Positions 2,543 through 15,539 of a stretch of 21,010 bases of DNA are shown here, piece after piece (positions within the stretch are counted from its first letter, which is position 1; each line of letters begins with the position of its first letter). Under the pieces are notes generated by a model, which saw only the letters and a program-made list of their open reading frames with translations, was not told the origin of the DNA and made no database searches. This stretch comes from a virus. The position numbers were made by a program, and so were the translations under genes. The stretch lies in the UHGV virus genome UHGV-1822439; one strand, given 5' to 3'.

Positions 2543-2582
2543 CGCAATGACTCCATTATGTTAATTAACCTGGTAATTTTAC

Positions 2583-2623
2583 CATTTTGTGATCTGTGTT
2601 ACATTCCTGACCTATACAAAATG
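2583..2623. promoter_or_regulatory. Junction inverted-repeat element, site A
   Basis: CATTTTGTGATCTGTGT at 2583-2599 and TATACAAAATG at 2613-2623; TTTTGTGATCTGTGT is identical to site B (14768-14782). Lies between the divergent tail fiber (-) and lipoprotein (+) genes. Confidence 0.5.
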
Positions 2624-2701
2624 TATTTATTGATTTATATCAATGTTGAGAAAACGATGTTTATGGATACTACAACCGACGGAACAATGGAGGATAAGAC
2701 A

Positions 2702-2941
2702 ATGAAAGGCTTTAAAAATATCGCTATAGCTGCAATGGTCGCTGGTATGGTTGGTTGTGCTGATATGCCGAAACGTGAATGCACGGCAATTTATCAGGCT
2801 GGCGGTAATGAATATGCGGTTGCAGTCTTCGGTGTCGCGGATGTTGGCGGTCATAAAATGGTTAAGGCCGGGTATCCGTTTAACTTCCAATGGGTAAGCG
2901 TTGACCACTTCAAGAAAACGGATTGCCCGGAACTGAATTAA
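2702..2941 (+). CDS. Small lipoprotein (79 aa), antisense moron next to the tail fiber gene
   Basis: Perfect SD GGAGGA (2689-2694), 7 nt before ATG at 2702. N-terminus MKGFKNIAIAAMVAGMVG-C is a signal peptide with lipobox (MVGC); mature part ~60 aa with three further Cys. The ORF-track N-terminal extension from 2558 has no SD. Confidence 0.6.
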   Translation: MKGFKNIAIAAMVAGMVGCADMPKRECTAIYQAGGNEYAVAVFGVADVGGHKMVKAGYPFNFQWVSVDHFKKTDCPELN

Positions 2942-9173: not shown

Positions 9174-9878
9174 TTAACCTACCTTGCTGGAACCAGGAAA
9201 ACAGGAGATCGGCAGTGCTGCCGGACGCGGAAAACGCAAACGGCAACCGCTAAGGCGGTGGCTGCATTTGTCTAACGTTGGGTCACTTGTTGGTGTATCT
9301 TTATCAGTTGCGACCGGGCCGCCAGAATACATGCACCCGTCGCCTCTGTATTGCCACTGACAAACGTCAGCAAGGATGGTGCGCCCTGGGATAACGGCTT
9401 TATCTGCATCAATTGGCGTTGACAATTCATATTGCACCTGATCCGCTGTTTCTTCGCTCATTGCTTCAACGACGTAAAAAGATACAGCCTCAATAGATGG
9501 ATCTGCGTCTGGATTGCCGTTAGGGAAGTTAACGGCGTCCAGGTATTTAACCTCCACCTGGCGGCGCGTAACCTTCATTCCTCGCAGGTCGTTGAAATCG
9601 TTATTCATCCCTGTGATTAGCCCGCCGATATTGGCTACAACCATTTGAGGCCGCGAATAAACGCCCTCGTTTTTCATTTCGAAGCCCGTCGTCTCGATCG
9701 GGTAGCTGTTGTAAGCTACTCCCTTCCAGATAACCTGGCCGTAATAGCCGTTCGCGCCGGAATGGAAGCGGATAACCTCGCCTCCCAGGGGAGTAAGGTC
9801 CAGTTCAAATAAGTCAATGACCGCGCCAACTCCGGCATCGACGGAATCAATAATCATCTCTCTCGGAATATTGCGCAT
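9174..9878 (-). CDS. L: Minor tail protein L (234 aa)
   Basis: Similarity to lambda L (RRQVEVKYLDAVNF vs RRKVYARFLDAVNF; C-terminal Cys cluster C..GCMY..KCSHRLSGC). SD AAGGTGAG 5 nt before ATG at 9878. Confidence 0.85.
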   Translation of the reverse strand: MRNIPREMIIDSVDAGVGAVIDLFELDLTPLGGEVIRFHSGANGYYGQVIWKGVAYNSYPIETTGFEMKNEGVYSRPQMVVANIGGLITGMNNDFNDLRGMKVTRRQVEVKYLDAVNFPNGNPDADPSIEAVSFYVVEAMSEETADQVQYELSTPIDADKAVIPGRTILADVCQWQYRGDGCMYSGGPVATDKDTPTSDPTLDKCSHRLSGCRLRFPRPAALPISCFPGSSKVG

Positions 9879-9891
9879 TTTCTCACCTTGT

Positions 9892-9930
9892 CATTTTGTG
9901 ATATGCGTCACGCTAAATCACACCAAAATG
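9892..9930. promoter_or_regulatory. Junction inverted-repeat element, site C
   Basis: CATTTTGTGAT (9892-9902) and ATCACAccAAAATG (9917-9930) form an imperfect inverted repeat, 14 nt upstream of the L start on the minus strand and just before the plus-strand cassette. Confidence 0.5.
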
Positions 9931-9932
9931 GA

Positions 9933-9961
9933 TTGTTCATGGTTTTTACAATATGTATATT
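9933..9961 (+). promoter_or_regulatory. Candidate sigma70 promoter for the L/M-junction cassette
   Basis: TTGTTC (9933-9938), 17-nt spacer, TATATT (9956-9961). Weak -35; by eye only. Confidence 0.3.
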
Positions 9962-10007
9962 TTACTCAAACGAAGGGGAAGTTAACAAAATGGCGCGGAG
10001 GTGCGTT

Positions 10008-10196
10008 ATGACTGAAAAGCCATGGAAGTTGACGGTATTCATGACAGACGGTAGGGAAAAGGTTATCGCCCTGTATGACGACGAGGGGGAAGCATTGGTT
10101 GACGCGCTTTTACTTGCTGAGGATGACCGCCTTTTGGGATACCAGATCGAACCTGTCAAATATGAGGCTAACAAAAATGAAAAAATACAGTCTTGA
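10008..10196 (+). CDS. Small acidic protein (62 aa), first gene of the L/M-junction cassette
   Basis: SD GGAGG (9997-10001) 6 nt before ATG 10008. MTEKPWKLTVFMTDGREKVIALYDDEGEALVDALLLAEDD...PVKYEAN; paralogous to the N-terminus of the next gene. An alternative start at ATG 9990 is possible. Confidence 0.55.
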   Translation: MTEKPWKLTVFMTDGREKVIALYDDEGEALVDALLLAEDDRLLGYQIEPVKYEANKNEKIQS

Positions 10197-10524
10197 TGTG
10201 TGGTTAAGTGGTAGCAAGGAGTGTTTCGGATTATTTGATAGCGAAGAAGTAGCCCTGGAAGAAGGCAGGATTCTTGAATGTAGTTTAGGCCATCCAGTGA
10301 AATATGCTGCTAATCCGGTACAGATAGTTGATGAGGTGGAAGATATGAACCCGAAAGATATTAATGTTAACTTCAATGTTAATTTTGCAGACTCTATGGA
10401 TCAGTCTTGCCCTGGTGAAATACACGCAAAAGGTTTCCCGGCTGACGATCCAGAAGCAAAACGCGAATACGAAAAAGCTGCGAAAGACTTCTGCATGGAT
10501 AATCTTGCAGCATTCGATAAATAA
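10177..10524 (+). CDS. Acidic protein (115 aa), tandem paralog of the preceding gene with a C-terminal extension
   Basis: ATG 10177 overlaps the preceding gene by 20 nt. N-terminus SLDVWLSGSKECFGLFDSEEVAL...GHPVKYAAN aligns with ...LTVFMTDGREKVIALYDDEGEAL...GYQIEPVKYEAN; strongly acidic. A GTG at 10198 is an alternative start. Confidence 0.55.
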   Translation: MKKYSLDVWLSGSKECFGLFDSEEVALEEGRILECSLGHPVKYAANPVQIVDEVEDMNPKDINVNFNVNFADSMDQSCPGEIHAKGFPADDPEAKREYEKAAKDFCMDNLAAFDK

Positions 10525-10533
10525 GGGGGATAC

Positions 10534-10782
10534 ATGGGGCGGCGCAATCACGGCGATTATGTGTACACGCTGAAACAGGCCGCCCGCCTCGTTGGTTATC
10601 ATGAACACGAATTTATTGATTTGCTGATTGAGCGCGGGATACTGTACCAGGTCTGTTTAACGCTGTACCCGAAAGCTAAATACCTACAGGAAAAGTTATT
10701 TATCATCATGACGGATGAAAACCAGGTTAACCATTCATTCGTCACTGATAAGGGCGTTAATTATCTGCGTGATAACTTATAG
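10534..10782 (+). CDS. Small protein (82 aa), possible helix-turn-helix DNA-binding protein
   Basis: SD AAGGGGGA (10524-10530) before ATG 10534, 9 nt after the preceding stop. Segment TLKQAARLVGYHEHEFIDLLIERGIL has a helix-turn-helix-like pattern (by inspection only). Confidence 0.5.
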   Translation: MGRRNHGDYVYTLKQAARLVGYHEHEFIDLLIERGILYQVCLTLYPKAKYLQEKLFIIMTDENQVNHSFVTDKGVNYLRDNL

Positions 10783-10792
10783 GTGACAGATT

Positions 10793-10909
10793 ATGAAAAT
10801 AGAAGTTTTGGCGCTAATAATAATGGGATTGATAGTATTTGGCGTTCATGCTGTAGATCTGGACTGGAAAACGATAGCGGAAAATATAGCATTAATGGAA
10901 ATGGAATAA
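10793..10909 (+). CDS. 38-aa hydrophobic peptide (single TM or signal-peptide-like N-terminus)
   Basis: SD AGGTGA (10781-10786) before ATG 10793. MKIEVLALIIMGLIVFGVHAVDLDWKTIAENIALMEME, stop TAA followed by two more in-frame stops and a terminator. Below the ORF-track length cutoff. Confidence 0.45.
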   Translation: MKIEVLALIIMGLIVFGVHAVDLDWKTIAENIALMEME

Positions 10910-10914
10910 TAATA

Positions 10915-10940
10915 ACCCCGCTTCGCGCGGGGTCGTGTTT
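10915..10940. terminator. Intrinsic terminator closing the L/M-junction cassette (possibly bidirectional)
   Basis: Stem ACCCCGC (10915-10921) / GCGGGGT (10927-10933), loop TTCGC, then CGTGTTTAT; on the minus strand the hairpin is followed by TATTATTATT. Confidence 0.6.
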
Positions 10941-10987
10941 ATACGCCATCAACCAAAAATAAAACCCCCTTCCCTTCCCGGGATCTA

Positions 10988-11125
10988 CACCCCCACGTAC
11001 CCATCGCCAACGTCGTGAAGATACCATATATCGCCGTTGTCAGCTTTTACAGTAAGGTCGTTGATCTCATAGTCGTCAAACAATGTAAAAGCGTAAGTTT
11101 TGTCAACCACACAAGTCCCGTACAT
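10988..11125 (-). CDS. Possible small ORF (46 aa) just downstream of M
   Basis: ATG at 11125, 12 nt after the M stop, preceded by GGGGGG with about 6-nt spacing; MYGTCVVDKTYAFTLFDDYEINDLTVKADNGDIWYLHDVGDGYVGV. No family recognised. Confidence 0.3.
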
Positions 11126-11137
11126 AACAACCCCCCA

Positions 11138-11491
11138 TTAGCCAACAACTTGTTCAAACGTTGCGTTTAGCGTGTACACAGGCCCGTCTTTGGTCATGCT
11201 CCAGCTACGGCAAACGAAAAGCCTTTGCACCCCGTCGATCGATGGAGTCCAGTAAAACGCCTCGACAGCGCCGCGCGCCCTCAAAAATGCTTCGGCCTGG
11301 ATCGCCACGTTTCCACCATCACCACATCCCGCGCTACTGCCTTTGAAAACCAGGGTATAACTATCAAGCAACGTGTTAATCCCTTTCGCCTGGCGCTGTT
11401 CATAACCATCACCAAGTTTAACGACAGACACATTTGGTTCCCTGGTCACGCTGTAGCTTCTTTGCGGCGTCCATCTGAAAACTTCTGGCAT
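11138..11491 (-). CDS. M: Minor tail protein M (117 aa)
   Basis: Similarity to lambda M as recalled (FRW near N-terminus, GDGYEQR vs GDGYSQR, C-terminal FEQVVG vs FEQVVN). SD AGGGGGA before ATG 11491. Confidence 0.85.
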   Translation of the reverse strand: MPEVFRWTPQRSYSVTREPNVSVVKLGDGYEQRQAKGINTLLDSYTLVFKGSSAGCGDGGNVAIQAEAFLRARGAVEAFYWTPSIDGVQRLFVCRSWSMTKDGPVYTLNATFEQVVG

Positions 11492-11557
11492 GATTCCCCC
11501 TATAAGTTACATATTGCATACATCTTTACGCGCTTCTACGCGAAAAATGAGAAATTC

Positions 11558-11589
11558 ATCACAAGAATTATAACCAGTTTACAAAATGG
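11558..11589. promoter_or_regulatory. Junction repeat element, site D
   Basis: ATCACAAgAA (11558-11567) and TTTACAAAATGG (11578-11589): same half-site family as sites A-C, immediately upstream of the candidate promoter. Confidence 0.4.
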
Positions 11590-11590
11590 C

Positions 11591-11619
11591 TTCACATAAG
11601 GCGTGACAAGATGTATATA
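11591..11619 (+). promoter_or_regulatory. Candidate sigma70 promoter for the M/tape-measure-junction cassette
   Basis: TTCACA (11591-11596), 17-nt spacer, TATATA (11614-11619); about 40 nt upstream of the first SD. Confidence 0.45.
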
Positions 11620-11660
11620 GTAAGCAAGAAGAAAAAGCAGTACCGACAAAGGAGGCCAAT

Positions 11661-11816
11661 ATGAAGCGTTATGTAGTGGTAATGCTGAACAACGCATTCG
11701 AACAGGTGGAAGTGGCGATAGTCAAAGGCTTTGATGACGCATTCAAATACGGTCAATTCATGATGAATGCGAAGGAAAACGAGTACCGTGATTTCTTCCT
11801 GAAAGTGGTCAACTAA
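11661..11816 (+). CDS. Small protein (51 aa), first gene of the M/tape-measure-junction cassette
   Basis: Strong SD AAAGGAGG (11648-11655), 5 nt before ATG 11661; MKRYVVVMLNNAFEQVEVAIVKGFDDAFKYGQFMMNAKENEYRDFFLKVVN. Below the ORF-track cutoff. Could be the partner (antitoxin-like) of the next gene. Confidence 0.5.
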   Translation: MKRYVVVMLNNAFEQVEVAIVKGFDDAFKYGQFMMNAKENEYRDFFLKVVN

Positions 11817-11834
11817 TGGATTGTGGGGTGTGTT

Positions 11835-12089
11835 ATGAAATTGGTGGCGATTGGTAAAAACCTGAAAGCACAGAAAAACGCACAGGACCGGATCATCAAG
11901 AAAGGAAAGCAATTGCTTGATGCTTTTCTTAAAAAAGAGGCCAACCCCAAAAAATTACGCGATGGCTACGGTTATAAATTTGACATCAACCCCGATTGGC
12001 GGTTATTCAGCGAAGATTTAAAGATGTGGTTAATTATTGACCACCTGGAATATAACAGGCACTGTGGGGTGAAAGGCGCTCACAAGTGA
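11835..12089 (+). CDS. Small basic protein (84 aa), candidate RelE/ParE-superfamily-like toxin
   Basis: ATG 11835, 18 nt after the upstream stop. MKLVAIGKNLKAQKNAQDRIIKKGKQLLDAFLKKEANPKKLRDGYGYKFDINPDWRLFSEDLKMWLIIDHLEYNRH. Pattern (basic N-terminal helix, NP..KL..G, D.R, C-terminal H/Y) loosely resembles RelE/YafQ/YoeB toxins; weak, from memory. Confidence 0.3.
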   Translation: MKLVAIGKNLKAQKNAQDRIIKKGKQLLDAFLKKEANPKKLRDGYGYKFDINPDWRLFSEDLKMWLIIDHLEYNRHCGVKGAHK

Positions 12090-12120
12090 CACGGATTTGA
12101 ATGTTGCGGAGGAAAACAAA

Positions 12121-12291
12121 ATGAAAAATCCGGCAAATAAAAGCAACGTAAAACGCATGGCATGGGTGCTAAAATATATGGATAGTAAAGGGGATACATA
12201 TACATGCCCATTTTTTAGGTGTACTGACGCGGTATTTGCCAGAAGTGTACACGGAGGGAAAATTGAGAGAGGATATACAAGATTTGAGTAA
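12121..12291 (+). CDS. Small basic protein (56 aa), hypothetical
   Basis: SD GGAGG (12108-12112) 8 nt before ATG 12121; MKNPANKSNVKRMAWVLKYMDSKGDTYTCPFFRCTDAVFARSVHGGKIERGYTRFE. Confidence 0.45.
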   Translation: MKNPANKSNVKRMAWVLKYMDSKGDTYTCPFFRCTDAVFARSVHGGKIERGYTRFE

Positions 12292-12329
12292 ATTTATTCA
12301 CGAAATCAATAACATGATGAAGGTTTATA

Positions 12330-12509
12330 ATGATTATTCATGATACTGAAGAATGCAGAAGGATTGATCTTAGTATTGAAGATGACGGAAGATTATGGAT
12401 CGTTAGCGACTGCGAGATGATTGTAATAGACAAAAAGCAAGCTGACGAACTGATAAGAGCATTGCAGCTTTATGCAAACGGCGAATTTAAAAATGATGAA
12501 ATTGAATAA
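12330..12509 (+). CDS. Small acidic protein (59 aa), hypothetical
   Basis: SD GAAGG 8 nt before ATG 12330; MIIHDTEECRRIDLSIEDDGRLWIVSDCEMIVIDKKQADELIRALQLYANGEFKNDEIE; stop 12507-12509, immediately followed by a terminator. Confidence 0.45.
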   Translation: MIIHDTEECRRIDLSIEDDGRLWIVSDCEMIVIDKKQADELIRALQLYANGEFKNDEIE

Positions 12510-12513
12510 AATA

Positions 12514-12540
12514 GCCCCGGCATTGTGCCGGGGTTTTGTT
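12514..12540. terminator. Intrinsic terminator, bidirectional (closes the cassette; also follows the tape measure gene on the minus strand)
   Basis: Stem CCCCGGCA (12515-12522) / TGCCGGGG (12526-12533), loop TTG, then TTTTGTTTATTT on plus; on minus the hairpin is followed by CTATTTTATTC. Confidence 0.75.
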
Positions 12541-14753
12541 TATTTCCTGCGAGGTTGCAGCATTCCGCCTGGTCTGGATGATTCGCGGTGCATCAGGCCC
12601 ATGCAGATCCTTTCCATGTCCTGTTGCAGCTTTTTGGCATCCTCATCGCTCCATCCATTTTGTGGGTAAACACTAATCGGCGCGTTTATGCTAACGCTAC
12701 CACCACCAGCACCACCAATGTCGCGATTTGGTATTACCCTGCCGTTGTCACCCGGGATCATGTACTGACTCCCATTGCTCGCCTGAAAGATCTCCGGTTT
12801 ACCGTGTTCGCCGACCTTATAGAGGCTGCCCGCAGCCACCGCACCGCCGTTATAACGAGCGCCAGCCAGGCCAAGCGCTTTTGCTCCAGCCACACCAGTG
12901 GCAAGACTCGTACCCCCCACGGTCGCCGCGCCGCCCATCGTGGCTACGTTTGCCAGGTATGCAGGAGTAGCCCACGCAGATCCCAAAGCGGTAGCCTCTG
13001 CCAATGCTTTAGCTGTTGCGGCTGCGCTGGCGGCCTCGCCTATCAATTGCTGCTTGACCCATTCAGCCCCCATTTGAACAAGCGTACCGATAACGGAGGA
13101 AAGGATTGTATTGCCAATGTTAGCCAGCGCCTGCTGCCAGCTTTGAGTGCCGTTAACCAGGCCCACAAGCGCATTTGTTGCAGATCCGCCCATTGCATCA
13201 ACGGTATCGCCCAACAGTTTGTAGCTCATTGACTGTGCTTTATATCGCTCCCACTCAAGGGTGAGCATTTCCTGTGCGTGCGCTCTTTCTTGTTCCCTCA
13301 TATATTGCTCAGTAGCGCCAAGATCTTCCAGCATTTGCTTACGAACGGTCCATTCATTTTGCGCCTGCTGTATTGGGTCTAGTTCACCGCGCTTCTGATC
13401 CAGTGATGGAATCATTTTGTCCCATTTTTCTTGCAGCCTATTGATCGGGTCGTTAATTTCCGCCAGAGTTTCGCGCAATTCATCACCAATTCCCTTCATT
13501 GCGCCTTTGTATTCAAGCATGGTTATTTTCCCGGCTTTAAAGGCTGCATCTATGGCTTTTTGTGATTCAAGCGCTTTGCGCATTGCTGCCGAATCTTCGT
13601 TATATGCATCTGAAATGCGCACACCCTGTTCCGCAAGGCGCTCGGCTTCTGATTTGCCGGTTTTTTTACCTTTGCCTTTCTTACCCTTACCACCAGGTTG
13701 AGGCTTAAACGTTATGCGACTTACACCAGCTTGCCCCGTGGGGAGAGTGGAAACAAATGGCTGTTCTCCGCCATCAAACCATCCAACCTGTTTCGCTTGA
13801 GCGCGGAACAAACTAAGCCCAGGCACTATACCCTCAAACGCCCCAGCCAATAGCCACAATTTATCAGTTAATGACGTGCTATCGCTCGCCAGGGACTTAA
13901 ACCAACCAGATAACATCTGGACTTCACTAGAAACAGCCTGTATACCAGTAACTACCAAATCAGACACTCCAAGCGTTTGGTTTAGCGTGTCAATTAACAG
14001 ATCGAAGTTGTTTTTTAGCTCGTTAAATGCCTGATCTGTTGTTGTTGGCAGTTTTGCGAAGTCCTTCTCTATGTCTTCTGCGCCAGCAAGAATTGAATTG
14101 GTAACATCCTCGGCGGTGAGCTTACCATCAAGCATTCTTGCGCGAAGTTCACCCATCGAGATCCCCATTTGTTTGGCGACGCGTCGCCATACTTCGGGCA
14201 TGTTTTCAAGCACAGAGTTGTATTCTTCCGCGCGAACAATGCCACCCGTCAGGGACTGCCCTAACTGGCGAAGTGCGTTTGACATTTCATCTGATGAGCT
14301 ACCTCCGATACGGCCTATTTTCTGAAGCGAGTCGGTAAGCTGCAATACCTGCTGACTGGTCGCGCTGGTATCCTGTAGGCTGGCTTTTAGGCTTTCCCAC
14401 AGCTTCCCGGTGCTTTGAACACTCATCCCTGTGCGATTCGATATCTGAACAATCCCGTCAAAATTCGATTTTGCGTCAGCAATGCCGCTTGATAGTCGTG
14501 TTACCCTGGCGCGTAGCAGATTTACGTTATCTGCGATCTCCAGGAATTTTTTTGCAGCCATGACCATCATTCCAATGTTCACGGCTTTGGATAAATTACT
14601 TATCGTGGTATTAAGTGACTGCACTGATTTATCGGTGCGTTTAGCGCCTTGCTCGATTTTATCAAACGAGTCCTCCGCCTTGCGTTGAGCTACTAGTAAC
14701 CGCTCGGTTTTTGCGTCAACGGTATACTCAATCGTGCCCACATTTGTTGTCAT
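12540..14753 (-). CDS. Tail length tape measure protein (737 aa)
   Basis: Large ORF between the chaperone and M; alpha-helical, Ala/Gln/Leu-rich with Gly-rich and Lys-rich segments (KGKKGKGKK); SD GGAG before ATG 14753. Confidence 0.85.
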   Translation of the reverse strand: MTTNVGTIEYTVDAKTERLLVAQRKAEDSFDKIEQGAKRTDKSVQSLNTTISNLSKAVNIGMMVMAAKKFLEIADNVNLLRARVTRLSSGIADAKSNFDGIVQISNRTGMSVQSTGKLWESLKASLQDTSATSQQVLQLTDSLQKIGRIGGSSSDEMSNALRQLGQSLTGGIVRAEEYNSVLENMPEVWRRVAKQMGISMGELRARMLDGKLTAEDVTNSILAGAEDIEKDFAKLPTTTDQAFNELKNNFDLLIDTLNQTLGVSDLVVTGIQAVSSEVQMLSGWFKSLASDSTSLTDKLWLLAGAFEGIVPGLSLFRAQAKQVGWFDGGEQPFVSTLPTGQAGVSRITFKPQPGGKGKKGKGKKTGKSEAERLAEQGVRISDAYNEDSAAMRKALESQKAIDAAFKAGKITMLEYKGAMKGIGDELRETLAEINDPINRLQEKWDKMIPSLDQKRGELDPIQQAQNEWTVRKQMLEDLGATEQYMREQERAHAQEMLTLEWERYKAQSMSYKLLGDTVDAMGGSATNALVGLVNGTQSWQQALANIGNTILSSVIGTLVQMGAEWVKQQLIGEAASAAATAKALAEATALGSAWATPAYLANVATMGGAATVGGTSLATGVAGAKALGLAGARYNGGAVAAGSLYKVGEHGKPEIFQASNGSQYMIPGDNGRVIPNRDIGGAGGGSVSINAPISVYPQNGWSDEDAKKLQQDMERICMGLMHRESSRPGGMLQPRRK

Positions 14754-14766
14754 GATTGTTACTCCA

Positions 14767-14830
14767 CTTTTGTGATCTGTGTATCTATTTTATACAAAAT
14801 GTCTTTACTATAACGACTCCATTTTGTATA
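14767..14830. promoter_or_regulatory. Junction inverted-repeat element, site B
   Basis: CTTTTGTGATCTGTGT (14767-14782), TATACAAAATG (14791-14801), and its exact inverted copy CATTTTGTATA (14820-14830). Starts 14 nt upstream of the tape measure start and overlaps the candidate plus-strand promoter. Confidence 0.55.
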
Positions 14831-14832
14831 AA
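14804..14832 (+). promoter_or_regulatory. Candidate sigma70 promoter for the secreted-protein moron
   Basis: TTTACT (14804-14809), 17-nt spacer, TATAAA (14827-14832); followed by a purine-rich leader (14833-14909). Confidence 0.4.
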
Positions 14833-14909
14833 GAGACTAAAGGAAAGGGATAGAGCAAAGGGGTTTGAAAGGACCGGATAAACCGGAGGAAGCAAAAGAG
14901 GATAAGAAA

Positions 14910-14999
14910 ATGAAAAACGTAAACTATCGTCCCAACGAACATGAACGCTATGCGGACTTCATAGAAGAAATGTTAAAAGCACTTAAAAACAAAAATTAA
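14910..14999 (+). CDS. Tiny ORF (29 aa), possible leader peptide or small protein
   Basis: SD AAGAGGA about 7 nt before ATG 14910; MKNVNYRPNEHERYADFIEEMLKALKNKN; stop 12 nt before the next start. Confidence 0.3.
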   Translation: MKNVNYRPNEHERYADFIEEMLKALKNKN

Positions 15000-15011
15000 T
15001 CGAGGCGGGTT

Positions 15012-15509
15012 ATGAAACGGCTAGTAAAAGTCGCGGTAGCTGCGGTCATGGCAATATTCGCGGTCAATGCAAATGCAAGTAATGAAGTCAGCAAGATGTG
15101 CGACGCTATTTATCCAGCCTACGAAAAAGCATATACAATGGCAAATGTAAACTTTTTTTCAATTGGTAGGCACGGCGTTAACTGGGAGTATTTCATCTTA
15201 AATAAAGATAGCAGGACCAAAAAAGGTGACGCTGAAATGATAAAAGCGCACGGTGAAAGTTTCGCTTTCGTGATGGCTGCTGCTGAAAACAAACAAAATG
15301 ATAATGAATTTAAAAACTTTGTCGCTGGACTTGCCATCATGGCTGCTGAACGGGCGATAAAAGATCACGACAATAACGCTTATGCCGCTGCCGACGGGAT
15401 GGCATTAGATAGGGTAAGAATTGACTTCAAAAACATGTGCGTCAAAGAAGGCGCTAACATGTATAAAAAAGTAATAGATAAACACCACGAATATTATATA
15501 GGTTATTAA
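15012..15509 (+). CDS. Secreted/periplasmic protein of unknown function (165 aa), moron
   Basis: SD GAGG 6 nt before ATG 15012; signal peptide MKRLVKVAVAAVMAIFAVNANA with Ala-x-Ala cleavage site; two Cys in the mature part; Ala/Lys/Asn-rich, likely helical. Confidence 0.6.
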   Translation: MKRLVKVAVAAVMAIFAVNANASNEVSKMCDAIYPAYEKAYTMANVNFFSIGRHGVNWEYFILNKDSRTKKGDAEMIKAHGESFAFVMAAAENKQNDNEFKNFVAGLAIMAAERAIKDHDNNAYAAADGMALDRVRIDFKNMCVKEGANMYKKVIDKHHEYYIGY

Positions 15510-15514
15510 AAAAA

Positions 15515-15539
15515 GCCCGGATCTACCGGGCTTTTTCTT
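15515..15539. terminator. Intrinsic terminator, bidirectional
   Basis: Stem GCCCGG (15515-15520) / CCGGGC (15526-15531), loop ATCTA, flanked by AAAAAA and TTTTTCTT. The chaperone stop codon (15523-15525) lies in the loop. Confidence 0.8.

What the first reader, a model, noticed from the sequence alone, without database searches (positions are those of the whole stretch)
9879..11137. Four-gene antisense cassette inserted between tail genes L and M
In lambda, M and L are adjacent. Here about 1.26 kb separates them and carries four plus-strand genes (10008-10196, 10177-10524, 10534-10782, 10793-10909), each with a well-spaced SD, a candidate promoter (9933-9961) and a terminator (10915-10940). 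The products are two paralogous acidic proteins, a possible HTH protein and a 38-aa hydrophobic peptide; none matches a family I recognise. The region looks AT-richer than the flanking tail genes. Morons at tail-gene junctions often carry defence, anti-defence or exclusion functions, so this is a candidate for an undescribed prophage accessory system.
Basis: partly seen in the sequence, partly recalled or inferred. Interest (0 to 1): 0.8.

Follow-up and report, generated by a model that had tools for sequence, protein, structure and literature searches.

The report
Antisense accessory operon between tail genes
Between two tail genes of an E. coli prophage of the mEp021 ("mEpimmI") group lies a real four-gene operon on the opposite strand with its own conserved promoter and terminator; nearly every phage of the group has it, it is not a recent insertion, and its function is untested.

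Summary
L (9174-9878, -) and M (11138-11491, -) are 1,259 bp apart. The interval carries four plus-strand genes at the stated coordinates, a hairpin terminator and a conserved promoter region.

The window is a prophage of the mEpimmI group; the cassette corresponds to mEp021 genes 74-71. It is present in 41 of 42 related viral contigs. The one exception is a clean deletion that keeps the promoter.

All four ORFs evolve as proteins:
- o1 and the N-terminal half of o2 are acidic paralogues with a small beta-beta-alpha-beta fold. They come in divergent alleles that reassort freely.
- o3 is a stand-alone KilAC/ANT domain with a MerR/excisionase-like winged helix. It is highly conserved.
- o4 is an optional small hydrophobic peptide.

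No known defence, toxin or RNA family matches. The promoter carries an invariant CRP-like site. It shares a sequence module with the promoters of cor and of another antisense island in the same tail module.

Best reading: a self-transcribed accessory (moron-type) operon expressed when late genes are silent, encoding small protein-binding effectors plus a KilAC protein. Its target is unknown. It is a candidate worth testing, not a demonstrated new system.

The parts
9897..9912 (+). CRP-like site TGTGATATGCGTCACG (TGTGA-N6-TCAC core)
   Evidence: The core is the only exact match in the window (expected 0.07). The half-sites are invariant in 38 distinct related cassettes, in mEp021 and in RefSeq prophages, while the spacer varies. 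Its centre lies 50.5-51.5 bp upstream of the -10 hexamer, roughly the class I position. Binding by CRP is inferred, not tested.
9933..9961 (+). Candidate sigma-70 promoter: -35 TTGTTC (TTGATC in most relatives), 17-nt spacer, -10 TATATT
   Evidence: It matches 8 of 12 consensus positions in the window, below the scan's threshold. It lies in the most conserved stretch of the interval (pi 0.06). The deletion variant L016 retains it.
9947..9964 (+). Operator-like palindrome TACAATAT-GT-ATATTTTA overlapping the -10
   Evidence: It has one mismatch to a perfect 8+2+8 palindrome, which is perfect in mEp021 and many relatives. A 2-mismatch copy lies upstream of the mEp021 Lpp/Cor exclusion gene. The binding factor is unknown.
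10008..10196 (+). o1: 62-aa acidic protein (pI 4.4); equivalent to mEp021_74; phrog_29559
   Evidence: There are three allele classes in relatives. dN/dS is 0.20-0.23. It is a paralogue of the o2 N-domain. The start at 10008 is supported by the conserved GGAGG and by frame-breaking indels upstream in some relatives.
10177..10524 (+). o2: 115-aa acidic protein; equivalent to mEp021_73; phrog_38567. Variable N-domain (residues 1-56) plus conserved C-terminal part (73-115)
   Evidence: The AF2 model has a beta-beta-alpha-beta N-domain with pLDDT about 90, and the rest is of low confidence. dN/dS is 0.23 for the N-domain and 0.09 for the C-terminal part. The family is tiny and E. coli-restricted: 57 clusters, and 9 representatives among 1.84 billion proteins.
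10534..10782 (+). o3: 82-aa stand-alone KilAC/ANT domain protein; equivalent to mEp021_71
10793..10909 (+). o4: 38-aa peptide with a hydrophobic N-terminal segment (LALIIMGLIVFGVHA) and an acidic tail; optional
   Evidence: It is present in 28 of 41 related cassettes, with two alternative C-terminal tails. Codon-position diversity is .27/.12/.38. It has no family hit. RefSeq does not annotate it.
10914..10934 (.). Bidirectional hairpin terminator
   Evidence: It scores on both strands. The fold has z = -3.0. mEp021 annotates the equivalent as TERM_11 and TERM_12. The T-tracts are short on both sides.
   Evidence: phrog_3249, E 1e-15. It is equivalent to mEp021_70. Diversity is .12/.10/.35 and dN/dS 0.10. 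A GGGGGG Shine-Dalgarno lies 5 nt before the ATG.
9174..9878 (-). Minor tail protein L (flank)
   Evidence: Pfam Phage_tail_L, E 7e-70.
11138..11491 (-). Minor tail protein M (flank)
   Evidence: Pfam Phage_min_tail, E 2e-29.

Best explanation
The interval holds an autonomous accessory (moron-type) operon of the mEpimmI (mEp021-like) phage group, transcribed convergently to the late tail operon.

Shown:
- Four real protein-coding genes sit on the plus strand.
- They are flanked by a strongly conserved upstream region and a bidirectional hairpin.
- The unit is present in almost all group members.
- Its content is mosaic: o1 and o2 alleles reassort, and small optional genes (c17, c16, o4, c23) come and go.
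- A phage genome exists without it.

Inferred:
1. Transcription starts near 9968 from TTGTTC-N17-TATATT. It is helped by cAMP-CRP bound at 9897-9912 and limited by a factor bound to the palindrome over the -10.
2. The unit points against the late operon. Its promoter shares an exact 12-nt motif with the promoters of cor (a prophage exclusion lipoprotein) and island 3. It therefore most likely runs when late genes are silent, that is in the lysogen and perhaps early in infection, and late read-through silences it.
3. o1 and o2 are small acidic binding proteins. Their variable beta-beta-alpha-beta domain picks the target and the conserved C-terminal part of o2 carries the common activity.
4. o3, a KilAC winged-helix protein with an acidic 'recognition' helix, acts on a host or phage protein or regulates the operon.
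5. o4 is a small membrane or exported peptide.

My best guess for the role is protein-level interference with a host process or a rival phage that benefits the lysogen. The target is unknown.
For: - Gene reality and purifying selection.
- Distribution: 41 of 42 contigs, seven phages and 35 E. coli genomes.
- Deletion variant L016 keeps the promoter.
- Mosaic content and independently reassorting alleles.
- Lower GC than the flanks, 43% against 52%.
- Terminator.
- Promoter region most conserved, with invariant TGTGA-N6-TCAC half-sites and a variable spacer.
- Shared promoter module. TTTTGTGATNTG occurs three times, expected 0.00, always on the plus strand upstream of plus-strand islands. The palindrome is repeated upstream of the mEp021 Lpp/Cor gene and is absent from the early half of the genome.
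- The neighbouring antisense islands carry typical prophage-expressed cargo: cor and a ParE-like toxin, E 6e-12.
- The o2 N-domain fold resembles many ~55-aa phage proteins, including DUF7336 (Foldseek prob 1.0, target-normalised TM 0.67-0.80).
- A stand-alone copy of the o2 C-terminal part lies in an array of small genes in an unrelated phage.
- KilAC domains have host-directed activities in experiments: SOS inhibition by the AriS KilAC domain alone (PMC9043618), and growth inhibition with filamentation in E. coli by phi11 Gp07, with the KilA-C domain retaining the growth-inhibitory effect (PMC5944126, abstract).
Against: - No transcript, protein or phenotype data exist for any of the four genes. 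The group's describing paper does not discuss them.
- The promoter is a weak consensus match, and the CRP centre is 1-2 bp off the ideal -61.5 phasing.
- Near-universal presence, very low synonymous divergence of o3 (dS 0.31 against 0.76-0.95 in neighbours) and its 'core' status suggest a function in the phage's own life cycle rather than a dispensable lysogen benefit.
- The o3 fold class is usually DNA-binding, so 'protein-binding' rests only on its acidic helix and on work with distant KilAC domains.
Confidence: 0.6

Rival explanations
1. Induction or immunity-control module, a functional analogue of the P22 and P1 immI antirepressor operons. o3, with or without o1 and o2, inactivates the non-cleavable CI-like repressor Rep021 or damps RecA/SOS. 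A signal other than DNA damage, for example cAMP-CRP, would then decide induction. Late transcription running antisense across the cassette would lock the switch.
For: - o3 is a KilAC/ANT domain, the domain found in P1 and P7 Ant proteins and in AriS.
- The gene is near-core and very conserved.
- mEpimmI lysogens are not UV-inducible and Rep021 lacks the Ala-Gly cleavage site (PMC11893012), so another induction route is needed.
- The promoter has an invariant CRP-like site and an operator-like palindrome.
- The cassette lies outside the immunity region, as in 186, N15 and Gifsy (PMC3121763).
Against: - o3 lacks the N-terminal AntA/B, Bro-N or Rha domain. In AriS that domain carries the phage-regulating activity, whereas KilAC alone only inhibited SOS.
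- The promoter module is shared with the cor/lpp exclusion gene, which has to be on in lysogens. An antirepressor should be off there.
- There is no LexA box (sequence).
- No similar operator occurs in the mEp021 immunity region.
- One phage genome lacks the whole cassette.
Confidence: 0.17
2. Anti-defence locus built like an acr-aca operon. Variable small acidic inhibitors (o1, o2 and the optional c17, c16, c23) are followed by a conserved HTH protein (o3) that represses the operon's own promoter through the palindrome over the -10.
For: - The architecture fits: conserved promoter with an inverted repeat over the -10, then variable and optional small acidic genes, then a conserved winged-HTH gene.
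- The o2 fold class is common among small proteins of lytic phages.
- The stand-alone o2 C-terminal part sits in an array of small genes.
Against: - There is no match to any known anti-defence or Aca family with the libraries at hand, and no Acr library was available.
- Variation is mostly allelic divergence of the same two genes, not replacement by unrelated genes.
- The o3 putative recognition helix is acidic (HEHEFIDLLIERG), which is atypical for DNA binding (sequence).
- There is no co-variation between o3 and the palindrome.
- A CRP-type promoter and antisense placement in the late operon fit prophage expression better than immediate-early expression.
Confidence: 0.12
3. Prophage-encoded defence, superinfection-exclusion or toxin-antitoxin module that protects the lysogen from other phages. 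This is.
For: - The junction is an accessory-gene hotspot. One distant relative carries a PD-DExK/NucC-like nuclease there (PADLOC E 3e-26).
- The adjacent island has a ParE-like toxin, and cor lies in the same module.
- o4 is a small membrane-type peptide.
- o1 and o2 overlap by 20 nt, like many two-gene modules.
Against: - None of the cassette proteins matches a PADLOC, Pfam or NCBIfam defence or toxin model.
- No enzymatic domain is present.
- The membrane peptide o4 is optional, present in 28 of 41 cassettes.
- o1 and o2 alleles reassort freely, which argues against a tightly matched toxin-antitoxin pair.
Confidence: 0.1
4. The ORFs are not genes. The interval is a non-coding spacer or an antisense RNA regulator of the tail operon, or the genes really lie on the minus strand.
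For: - Long minus-strand ORFs exist, for example 10285-10608 (107 aa).
- Transcription across the interval is necessarily antisense to the late transcript.
Against: - Codon-position diversity and dN/dS fit the plus-strand frames. The minus-strand ORFs only mirror that pattern.
- Shine-Dalgarno sites are well placed.
- There are PHROG and Pfam matches and no Rfam match.
Confidence: 0.01

Closest known systems
Morons / lysogenic-conversion cassettes of lambdoid phages (the Hendrix-Juhala concept; examples are lambda lom and bor, and cor of phi80, N15 and HK022)
   Same: - It lies between two genes that are adjacent in relatives.
- It has its own promoter region and terminator.
- Its GC is lower than that of the flanks.
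- Its gene content is mosaic.
- It can be deleted.
- It sits in the tail region next to other such units, and its promoter module is shared with cor.
   Different: - It is near-universal in its phage group rather than sporadic.
- It has four genes rather than one.
- It points against the late operon.
- Expression in the lysogen has not been shown.
Antirepressor operons outside the immunity region (P22 immI arc-ant; P1/P7 immI icd-ant; 186 tum; N15 antC; Gifsy gfoA and gfhA)
   Same: - It has a KilAC/ANT domain, as in the P1 and P7 Ant proteins.
- It is a small operon with its own regulated promoter, far from the repressor gene.
- The host phage has a non-cleavable repressor.
   Different: - o3 is the KilAC domain alone (82 aa), without the AntA/B, Bro-N or Rha domain.
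- There is no LexA box, no Arc- or Mnt-type gene and no c4-like RNA.
- Binding to a repressor is untested.
AriS of Listeria phage phi10403S and Gp07 of phage phi11 (experimentally studied KilAC-domain proteins)
   Same: They share Pfam domain PF03374. In those proteins the KilAC domain alone has a host-directed effect: SOS inhibition for AriS and growth inhibition for Gp07.
   Different: - Outside the group, the nearest annotated phage relatives of o3 are the C-terminal domains of larger Rha/Ant proteins, at only 30-38% identity; similarity to AriS or Gp07 themselves was not measured.
- Those proteins are two-domain proteins of Gram-positive phages.
- No activity is known for o3.
acr-aca anti-CRISPR operons
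   Same: Variable small acidic genes are followed by a conserved HTH gene. An inverted repeat overlaps the promoter. The locus is embedded among late genes.
   Different: - There is no homology to known Acr or Aca proteins.
- Variation is allelic rather than by gene replacement.
- The orientation is antisense.
- The o3 helix is acidic.
DUF7336 and similar ~55-aa phage proteins (BFVD models)
   Same: They share the beta-beta-alpha-beta fold of o1 and the o2 N-domain at fold level (Foldseek prob 1.0, target-normalised TM 0.67-0.80).
   Different: There is no sequence-level match: no Pfam hit at E up to 1 for any of the 38 family members. DUF7336 itself has no known function and no literature.

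Membership tests
Moron (autonomous accessory transcription unit in a phage late region) | Lies between two genes that are adjacent in related phages | tested here: met
   L and M are 45 bp apart in 14 of 36 more distant relatives (L about 71% identical). They are 128 bp apart in the deletion variant L016.
Moron (autonomous accessory transcription unit in a phage late region) | Own promoter | tested here: inconclusive
   The consensus match is 8 of 12 (9 of 12 in most relatives) and the scan did not list it. The region is nevertheless the most conserved of the interval, and a related module recurs upstream of the other antisense islands. No transcript data exist.
Moron (autonomous accessory transcription unit in a phage late region) | Own terminator | tested here: met
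   The hairpin at 10914-10934 scores on both strands, with fold z = -3.0.
Moron (autonomous accessory transcription unit in a phage late region) | Base composition differs from the flanks | tested here: met
   GC is 43.0%, against 51.6% for L and 52.0% for M.
Moron (autonomous accessory transcription unit in a phage late region) | Expressed from the repressed prophage | not testable with these tools
   This needs RNA-seq or reporter fusions in a lysogen.
Pfam PF03374 ANT / KilAC domain (o3) | Score above the curated gathering threshold over most of the profile | tested here: met
   29.1 bits against 25.3, profile positions 23-105 of 108. Homologues carry the same precomputed domain.
Two-domain phage antirepressors (P1/P7 Ant, AriS-like) | N-terminal AntA/AntB, Bro-N or Rha domain joined to KilAC | tested here: not met
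   o3 is 82 aa and consists of the KilAC domain only. The upstream genes o1 and o2 have no such domain.
Two-domain phage antirepressors (P1/P7 Ant, AriS-like) | Binds and inactivates the phage repressor | not testable with these tools
   No interaction assay or multimer modelling was available.
acr-aca operon | Conserved HTH gene downstream of variable small genes, with an inverted repeat in the promoter | tested here: met
   This is true of the architecture only.
acr-aca operon | Homology to a known Acr or Aca family, or shown inhibition of a defence system | not tested
   No Acr/Aca library was at hand. The Pfam, NCBIfam and PHROG searches gave no such name.
Known anti-phage defence systems (PADLOC-DB v2) | Match of any cassette protein to a defence model | tested here: not met
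   There were no hits at E up to 1 for o1-o4 and o5m, and none at E up to 0.01 for c16, c17 and c23.
Type II toxin-antitoxin pair | Recognisable toxin or antitoxin domain | tested here: not met
   The cassette has none. By contrast the neighbouring island has ParE_like, E 6e-12.
Pfam DUF7336 (o1 and the o2 N-domain) | Sequence match to the family model | tested here: not met
   There is no hit at E up to 1 for o1, for o2 or for any of the 38 o2 homologues. Only fold-level resemblance was found.
Class I CRP-dependent promoter | TGTGA-N6-TCACA site | tested here: met
   It matches 9 of 10 core positions in the window and 10 of 10 in one relative. The half-sites are invariant and the spacer is variable.
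Class I CRP-dependent promoter | Site centred near -61.5 (or one or two further helical turns upstream) | tested here: inconclusive
   The centre lies 50.5-51.5 bp upstream of the -10 hexamer, against 49.5 bp in lac. That corresponds to about -62.5 to -63.5 if the start is 7 nt after the -10. The transcription start is unknown.
Class I CRP-dependent promoter | Dependence on cAMP-CRP | not testable with these tools
   This needs fusions in crp or cya backgrounds.

The most novel reading that the evidence does not exclude
The cassette is the missing induction or lysogeny-control input of a phage family whose repressor cannot be cleaved and whose lysogens ignore UV. A CRP-gated operon embedded antisense in the tail operon would encode a KilAC protein, with two variable-specificity partners, that acts on Rep021 or on RecA/SOS. 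Late transcription would shut it off by collision. Alternatively, o1 and o2 are founding members of a new family of small inhibitor proteins, directed against a defence system or a host factor, under a KilAC autoregulator.
Probability: 0.2. Interest if true: 0.7.

Novelty: new member of a known kind. Interest (0 to 1): 0.4.

Why it matters
mEpimmI phages are reported to be as common as lambdoid phages in human gut E. coli (PMC11893012), yet this near-universal four-gene unit has no assigned role.

If it is expressed in lysogens it is a conserved lysogenic-conversion or life-cycle control module, with two protein families found almost only in this phage group. A stand-alone KilAC protein would be a simple handle on what this widespread 'antirepressor' domain actually does in E. 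coli.

The shared promoter motifs also suggest that the antisense islands of this tail module (cor, this cassette, the ParE-like pair and a secreted-type protein) may be co-regulated. For three of them a CRP-like element is a candidate input. This can be tested directly with reporter fusions.

If none of this holds, it is simply one more uncharacterised accessory cassette at a tail-gene junction.

Tried and rejected
- Known RNA families and tRNAs in 9700-12700 and in the whole window: none.
- Mobile-element signature: no flanking direct or inverted repeats and no integrase or transposase in the interval.
- Defence and toxin libraries: PADLOC and NCBIfam gave nothing for o1-o4 and o5m. Pfam gave nothing for any of the 38 o2 homologues.
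- Solved-structure relatives by sequence: none for o3 or the o2 profile.
- Exhaustive HMMER search of 1.84 billion representatives with o2: nine hits, no annotated relative.
- Operators of the phage repressor. The mEp021 immunity region has no copy of the cassette palindrome and no convincing repeat of the TGTGAT motif; there is one partial match, TTTTGTGACTTG, upstream of the repressor gene. I could not link the cassette to Rep021.
- LexA box in the promoter: none by eye.
- Positive selection: pairwise dN/dS is below 1 everywhere. o1 and the o2 N-domain are only relaxed, at about 0.2 against 0.04-0.06 in L and M. The 'arms-race' signature is therefore not shown.
- Idea that the 51-aa first gene of island 2 is a third paralogue of o1 and o2: no similarity by BLASTP or profile comparison.
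- Wider context for stand-alone o3. The IMG/VR scan with the o3 alignment found only the same phage group. tblastn against isolated phages found only C-terminal domains of Rha/Ant proteins at 30-38% identity.
- Literature: the mEpimmI paper and its supplements do not treat these genes. There are no papers on DUF7336.
Full report
**What is there.** The window is the tail and head module of a prophage, read on the minus strand. Over 9700-11300 it is 100% identical to the E. coli M15 chromosome. It is 83-88% identical to phages mEp021, mEp010, mEp013, mEp044, mEp515, mEp554 and MagusPhagus. These form the mEpimmI group, Nus-dependent non-lambdoid temperate coliphages (PMC11893012).

L is 9174-9878 (-) and M is 11138-11491 (-); Pfam confirms both. 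They are 1,259 bp apart. They correspond to mEp021 genes 74, 73 and 71, plus an unannotated small ORF. Each has a plausible Shine-Dalgarno site 4-9 nt upstream.

It follows M directly and belongs to the late operon.

**Are these genes real?** I fetched 80 viral contigs encoding relatives of L. I then aligned the 38 distinct versions of the interval.
- Nucleotide diversity peaks at third codon positions in the stated frames: o2 .19/.13/.33, o3 .05/.03/.15, o4 .27/.12/.38, o5m .12/.10/.35. The peak is weaker in o1, at .24/.21/.32.
- The long minus-strand ORFs only mirror this pattern.
- Pairwise dN/dS is 0.20-0.23 for o1, 0.23 for o2 residues 1-56, 0.09 for o2 residues 73-115 and 0.11 for o3. 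L gives 0.04 and M 0.06.

All four are therefore protein-coding and under purifying selection. o1 and the first half of o2 are several-fold more relaxed than the tail genes. Nothing reaches dN/dS above 1.

**Distribution.**
- Of 42 contigs with an mEpimmI-type L (84% identity or more) and an M gene, 41 carry the cassette, in a gap of 1,199-1,894 bp.
- o3 is 89-100% identical across them. o2 is 56-97% identical. o1 is 43-100% identical in the 40 cassettes where it is detected, and falls into three allele classes.
- o1 and o2 alleles reassort independently.
- Optional small genes come and go: c17 (79-81 aa, between o2 and o3, 4 loci), c16 (67 aa, after o3, 9 loci), c23 (58 aa, 2 loci) and o4 (28 of 41 cassettes).
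- The single cassette-free contig (L016) lacks the equivalent of window positions about 9992-11123. It keeps the whole upstream region, so it is a deletion derivative and not an empty site.
- In a more distant group (L about 71% identical), L and M are 45 bp apart in 14 of 36 loci. Elsewhere they are separated by 178-1,301 bp of unrelated, mostly antisense genes. These include a PD-DExK/NucC-like nuclease and an aspartyl-protease-like protein.

The junction is thus a hotspot for accessory genes, but in the mEpimmI group the cassette is a fixed feature. The group's describers list the 'KilAC-like antirepressor' among the genes their manual analysis found in all 48 genomes. They do not discuss the cassette.

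**The proteins.**
- *o1 and o2.* o1 is 62 aa with pI 4.4. It is a paralogue of o2 residues 2-46: 35% identity over 52 aa, E 5e-5. The o2 family has a variable N-terminal domain and a conserved C-terminal part with the motif ADSMDQxCPGEIHxxGFPADDP...EYEKAAKDFCIDNL.
- *o2 family size.* It is very small: 57 clusters, all from E. coli or unnamed, and nine representatives among 1.84 billion proteins. Two of those are 56-aa stand-alone copies of the C-terminal part. One of these sits in an array of small same-strand genes in an unrelated phage with a Mu-type portal.
- *What KilAC domains do.* The KilAC domain of Listeria AriS alone inhibits the SOS response, probably through RecA (PMC9043618). [quoted passage not shown] Outside the group, o3's nearest relatives are the C-terminal domains of larger Rha/Ant proteins, at 30-38% identity.
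- *o4.* It has a hydrophobic segment ending in VHA and two alternative acidic or aromatic tails. It could be a small membrane protein or an exported peptide.
- *Libraries.* PADLOC and NCBIfam give nothing for any of these proteins.

**Regulatory anatomy.** The stretch 9910-9969 is the most conserved of the interval, with pi 0.06. The alignment shows three elements:
1. TGTGAT-N4-(A/G)TCAC(G/A) at 9897-9912. The half-sites are invariant and the spacer is variable, as expected for the site of a dimeric factor. It matches the CRP core, and it is the only TGTGA-N6-TCAC in the window (expected 0.07).
2. A -35 of TTGATC or TTGTTC at 9933-9938 and a -10 of TATATT at 9956-9961, 17 bp apart. This is too weak for the consensus scan.
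3. A palindrome TACAATAT-NN-ATATTGTA over the -10. It has one mismatch here and is perfect in mEp021.

The CRP-like centre lies 50.5-51.5 bp upstream of the -10, against 49.5 bp in lac. This is near, but not exactly at, class I phasing. The hairpin at 10914-10934 is terminator-like on both strands. Late transcripts must read through it, presumably under Q-type antitermination; that step is an inference.

**Context that bears on function.** The cassette is one of at least four plus-strand islands in this minus-strand module:
- cor, the exclusion lipoprotein.
- This cassette.
- An island between M and the tape-measure gene, with a 51-aa gene followed by a ParE-like toxin (Pfam E 6e-12) and its own bidirectional terminator.
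- An island after the tape-measure gene, encoding a 165-aa protein with a signal-peptide-like N-terminus.

All three islands I measured are AT-richer than their flanks: 39-43% GC against 50-52%.

Their upstream regions share sequence:
- TTTTGTGATNTG occurs three times in the window (expected 0.00). All three copies are on the plus strand, upstream of cor, the cassette and the third island.
- ACAAAATGNNTT occurs upstream of cor and of the second and third islands. The cassette has a one-mismatch version (alignment).
- In mEp021 the palindrome recurs, with two mismatches, upstream of the Lpp/Cor-type exclusion gene. It is absent from the early half of the genome.

An exclusion lipoprotein is useful only if it is made in the lysogen. 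This shared promoter design is my main reason to expect prophage expression of the cassette.

**Reading.**
- *Shown:* a conserved, mosaic, dispensable, independently delimited four-gene unit, convergent with the late operon.
- *Inferred:* it is transcribed from its own promoter when late genes are silent. The promoter is possibly CRP-assisted and possibly operator-limited. The unit is silenced by late read-through. Its products act by binding other proteins: o1 and o2 through a variable domain, o3 through a KilAC winged helix.

I put 0.6 on this general reading. The specific role is open. The alternatives I weigh are:
- Induction or SOS control. This is attractive because these lysogens are not UV-inducible and the repressor lacks a cleavage site. 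It is weakened by the missing N-terminal antirepressor domain and by the promoter shared with cor.
- An acr-aca-like anti-defence locus. The architecture fits, but there is no homology.
- Defence, exclusion or toxin-antitoxin. There is no supporting domain.

**Unexplained.** o3 has a synonymous divergence of only 0.31, against 0.76-0.95 for L, M and o2. This could reflect a recent recombinational sweep, use of o3 and the promoter as conserved homology arms for allele exchange, or constraint on the DNA or RNA itself.

**Verdict.** The interpretation as an accessory cassette is reasonable. However, this is a fixed, already annotated (though uncharacterised) feature of a described phage group, one of several antisense units there, with no evidence yet for defence or anti-defence. 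It is a sound experimental candidate of moderate interest.

Noticed in passing
window 11580-12535 (+): A second antisense island lies between M and the tape-measure gene. It has a promoter-like TTCACA-N17-TATATA, then a 51-aa gene (11661-11816) followed by an 84-aa ParE-like toxin (11835-12089; Pfam PF24732, E 6e-12, above threshold). Two more small genes follow (12121-12291 and 12330-12509), then a bidirectional terminator at 12513-12535. This is probably a toxin-antitoxin pair embedded in the tail module.
   Followed up: partly
window 14754-15535 (+): A third antisense island lies after the tape-measure gene. It has a 29-aa ORF (14910-14999) and a 165-aa protein (15012-15509) with a signal-peptide-like N-terminus (MKRLVKVAVAAVMAIFAVNANA). 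There is no Pfam, PHROG or PADLOC hit. GC is 39%.
   Followed up: partly
window 2585-2596, 9894-9905, 14768-14779 (and 2616, 11581, 14794): The plus-strand islands share a promoter module. TTTTGTGATNTG occurs three times (expected 0.00) and ACAAAATGNNTT three times (expected 0.14), always upstream of plus-strand genes. This suggests common regulation of the antisense cargo, possibly by CRP.
   Followed up: partly
window 2558-2941 (+): The cor gene as annotated in RefSeq (127 aa) probably starts too early. The shared promoter motifs lie inside its 5' end. A lipoprotein signal with lipobox (MKGFKNIAIAAMVAGMVGC) begins at codon 49 (about 2702), preceded by GGAGG.
   Followed up: partly
window 10534-10782: o3 has unusually low synonymous divergence: dS 0.31, against 0.76 for L, 0.88 for M and 0.95 for o2. 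Together with the conserved promoter it brackets the variable o1 and o2 region. The cause is unexplained; candidates are a recombinational sweep, a role as homology arms, or nucleotide-level constraint.
   Followed up: no
L016 (IMGVR_UViG_3300045988_076424), equivalent to window about 9992-11123: One related 53.9-kb viral contig has a clean deletion, with an AT microhomology at the junction. It removes o1-o4, the terminator and almost all of o5m, but keeps the promoter and leader.
   Followed up: yes
L061, L075, L077 (L-M gap of more distant relatives): In phages with an L protein about 71% identical, the same junction carries unrelated antisense cargo. Examples are a 268-aa DUF6602 / PD-DExK NucC-like nuclease (PADLOC E 3e-26), a Cys-rich 177-aa protein and an aspartyl-protease-like 154-aa protein. 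In 14 of 36 loci the gap is only 45 bp.
   Followed up: partly
window about 1478 (relative to NZ_CP185789.1): E. coli M15 matches the whole window at 99.9%, but in two pieces spanning about 1.08 kb more than the window, and M15 has an IS903B annotated within that stretch. It is evidently inserted in the head-fibre gene, which is intact in the window as the 598-aa ORF 746-2542.
   Followed up: partly
L003, L004, L005 (RefSeq prophages): RefSeq names some o1 homologues 'transporter' (for example WP_086611599.1, 51 aa). Nothing in the sequence supports this for a 51-62-aa acidic soluble protein.
   Followed up: no
L127 11123-11142 (mEp021 immunity region): TTTTGTGACTTGCATCAAAA, a partial match to the cassette's TGTGA motif, lies about 95 nt upstream of the annotated repressor gene mEp021_15. 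It was not examined in other group members.
   Followed up: no
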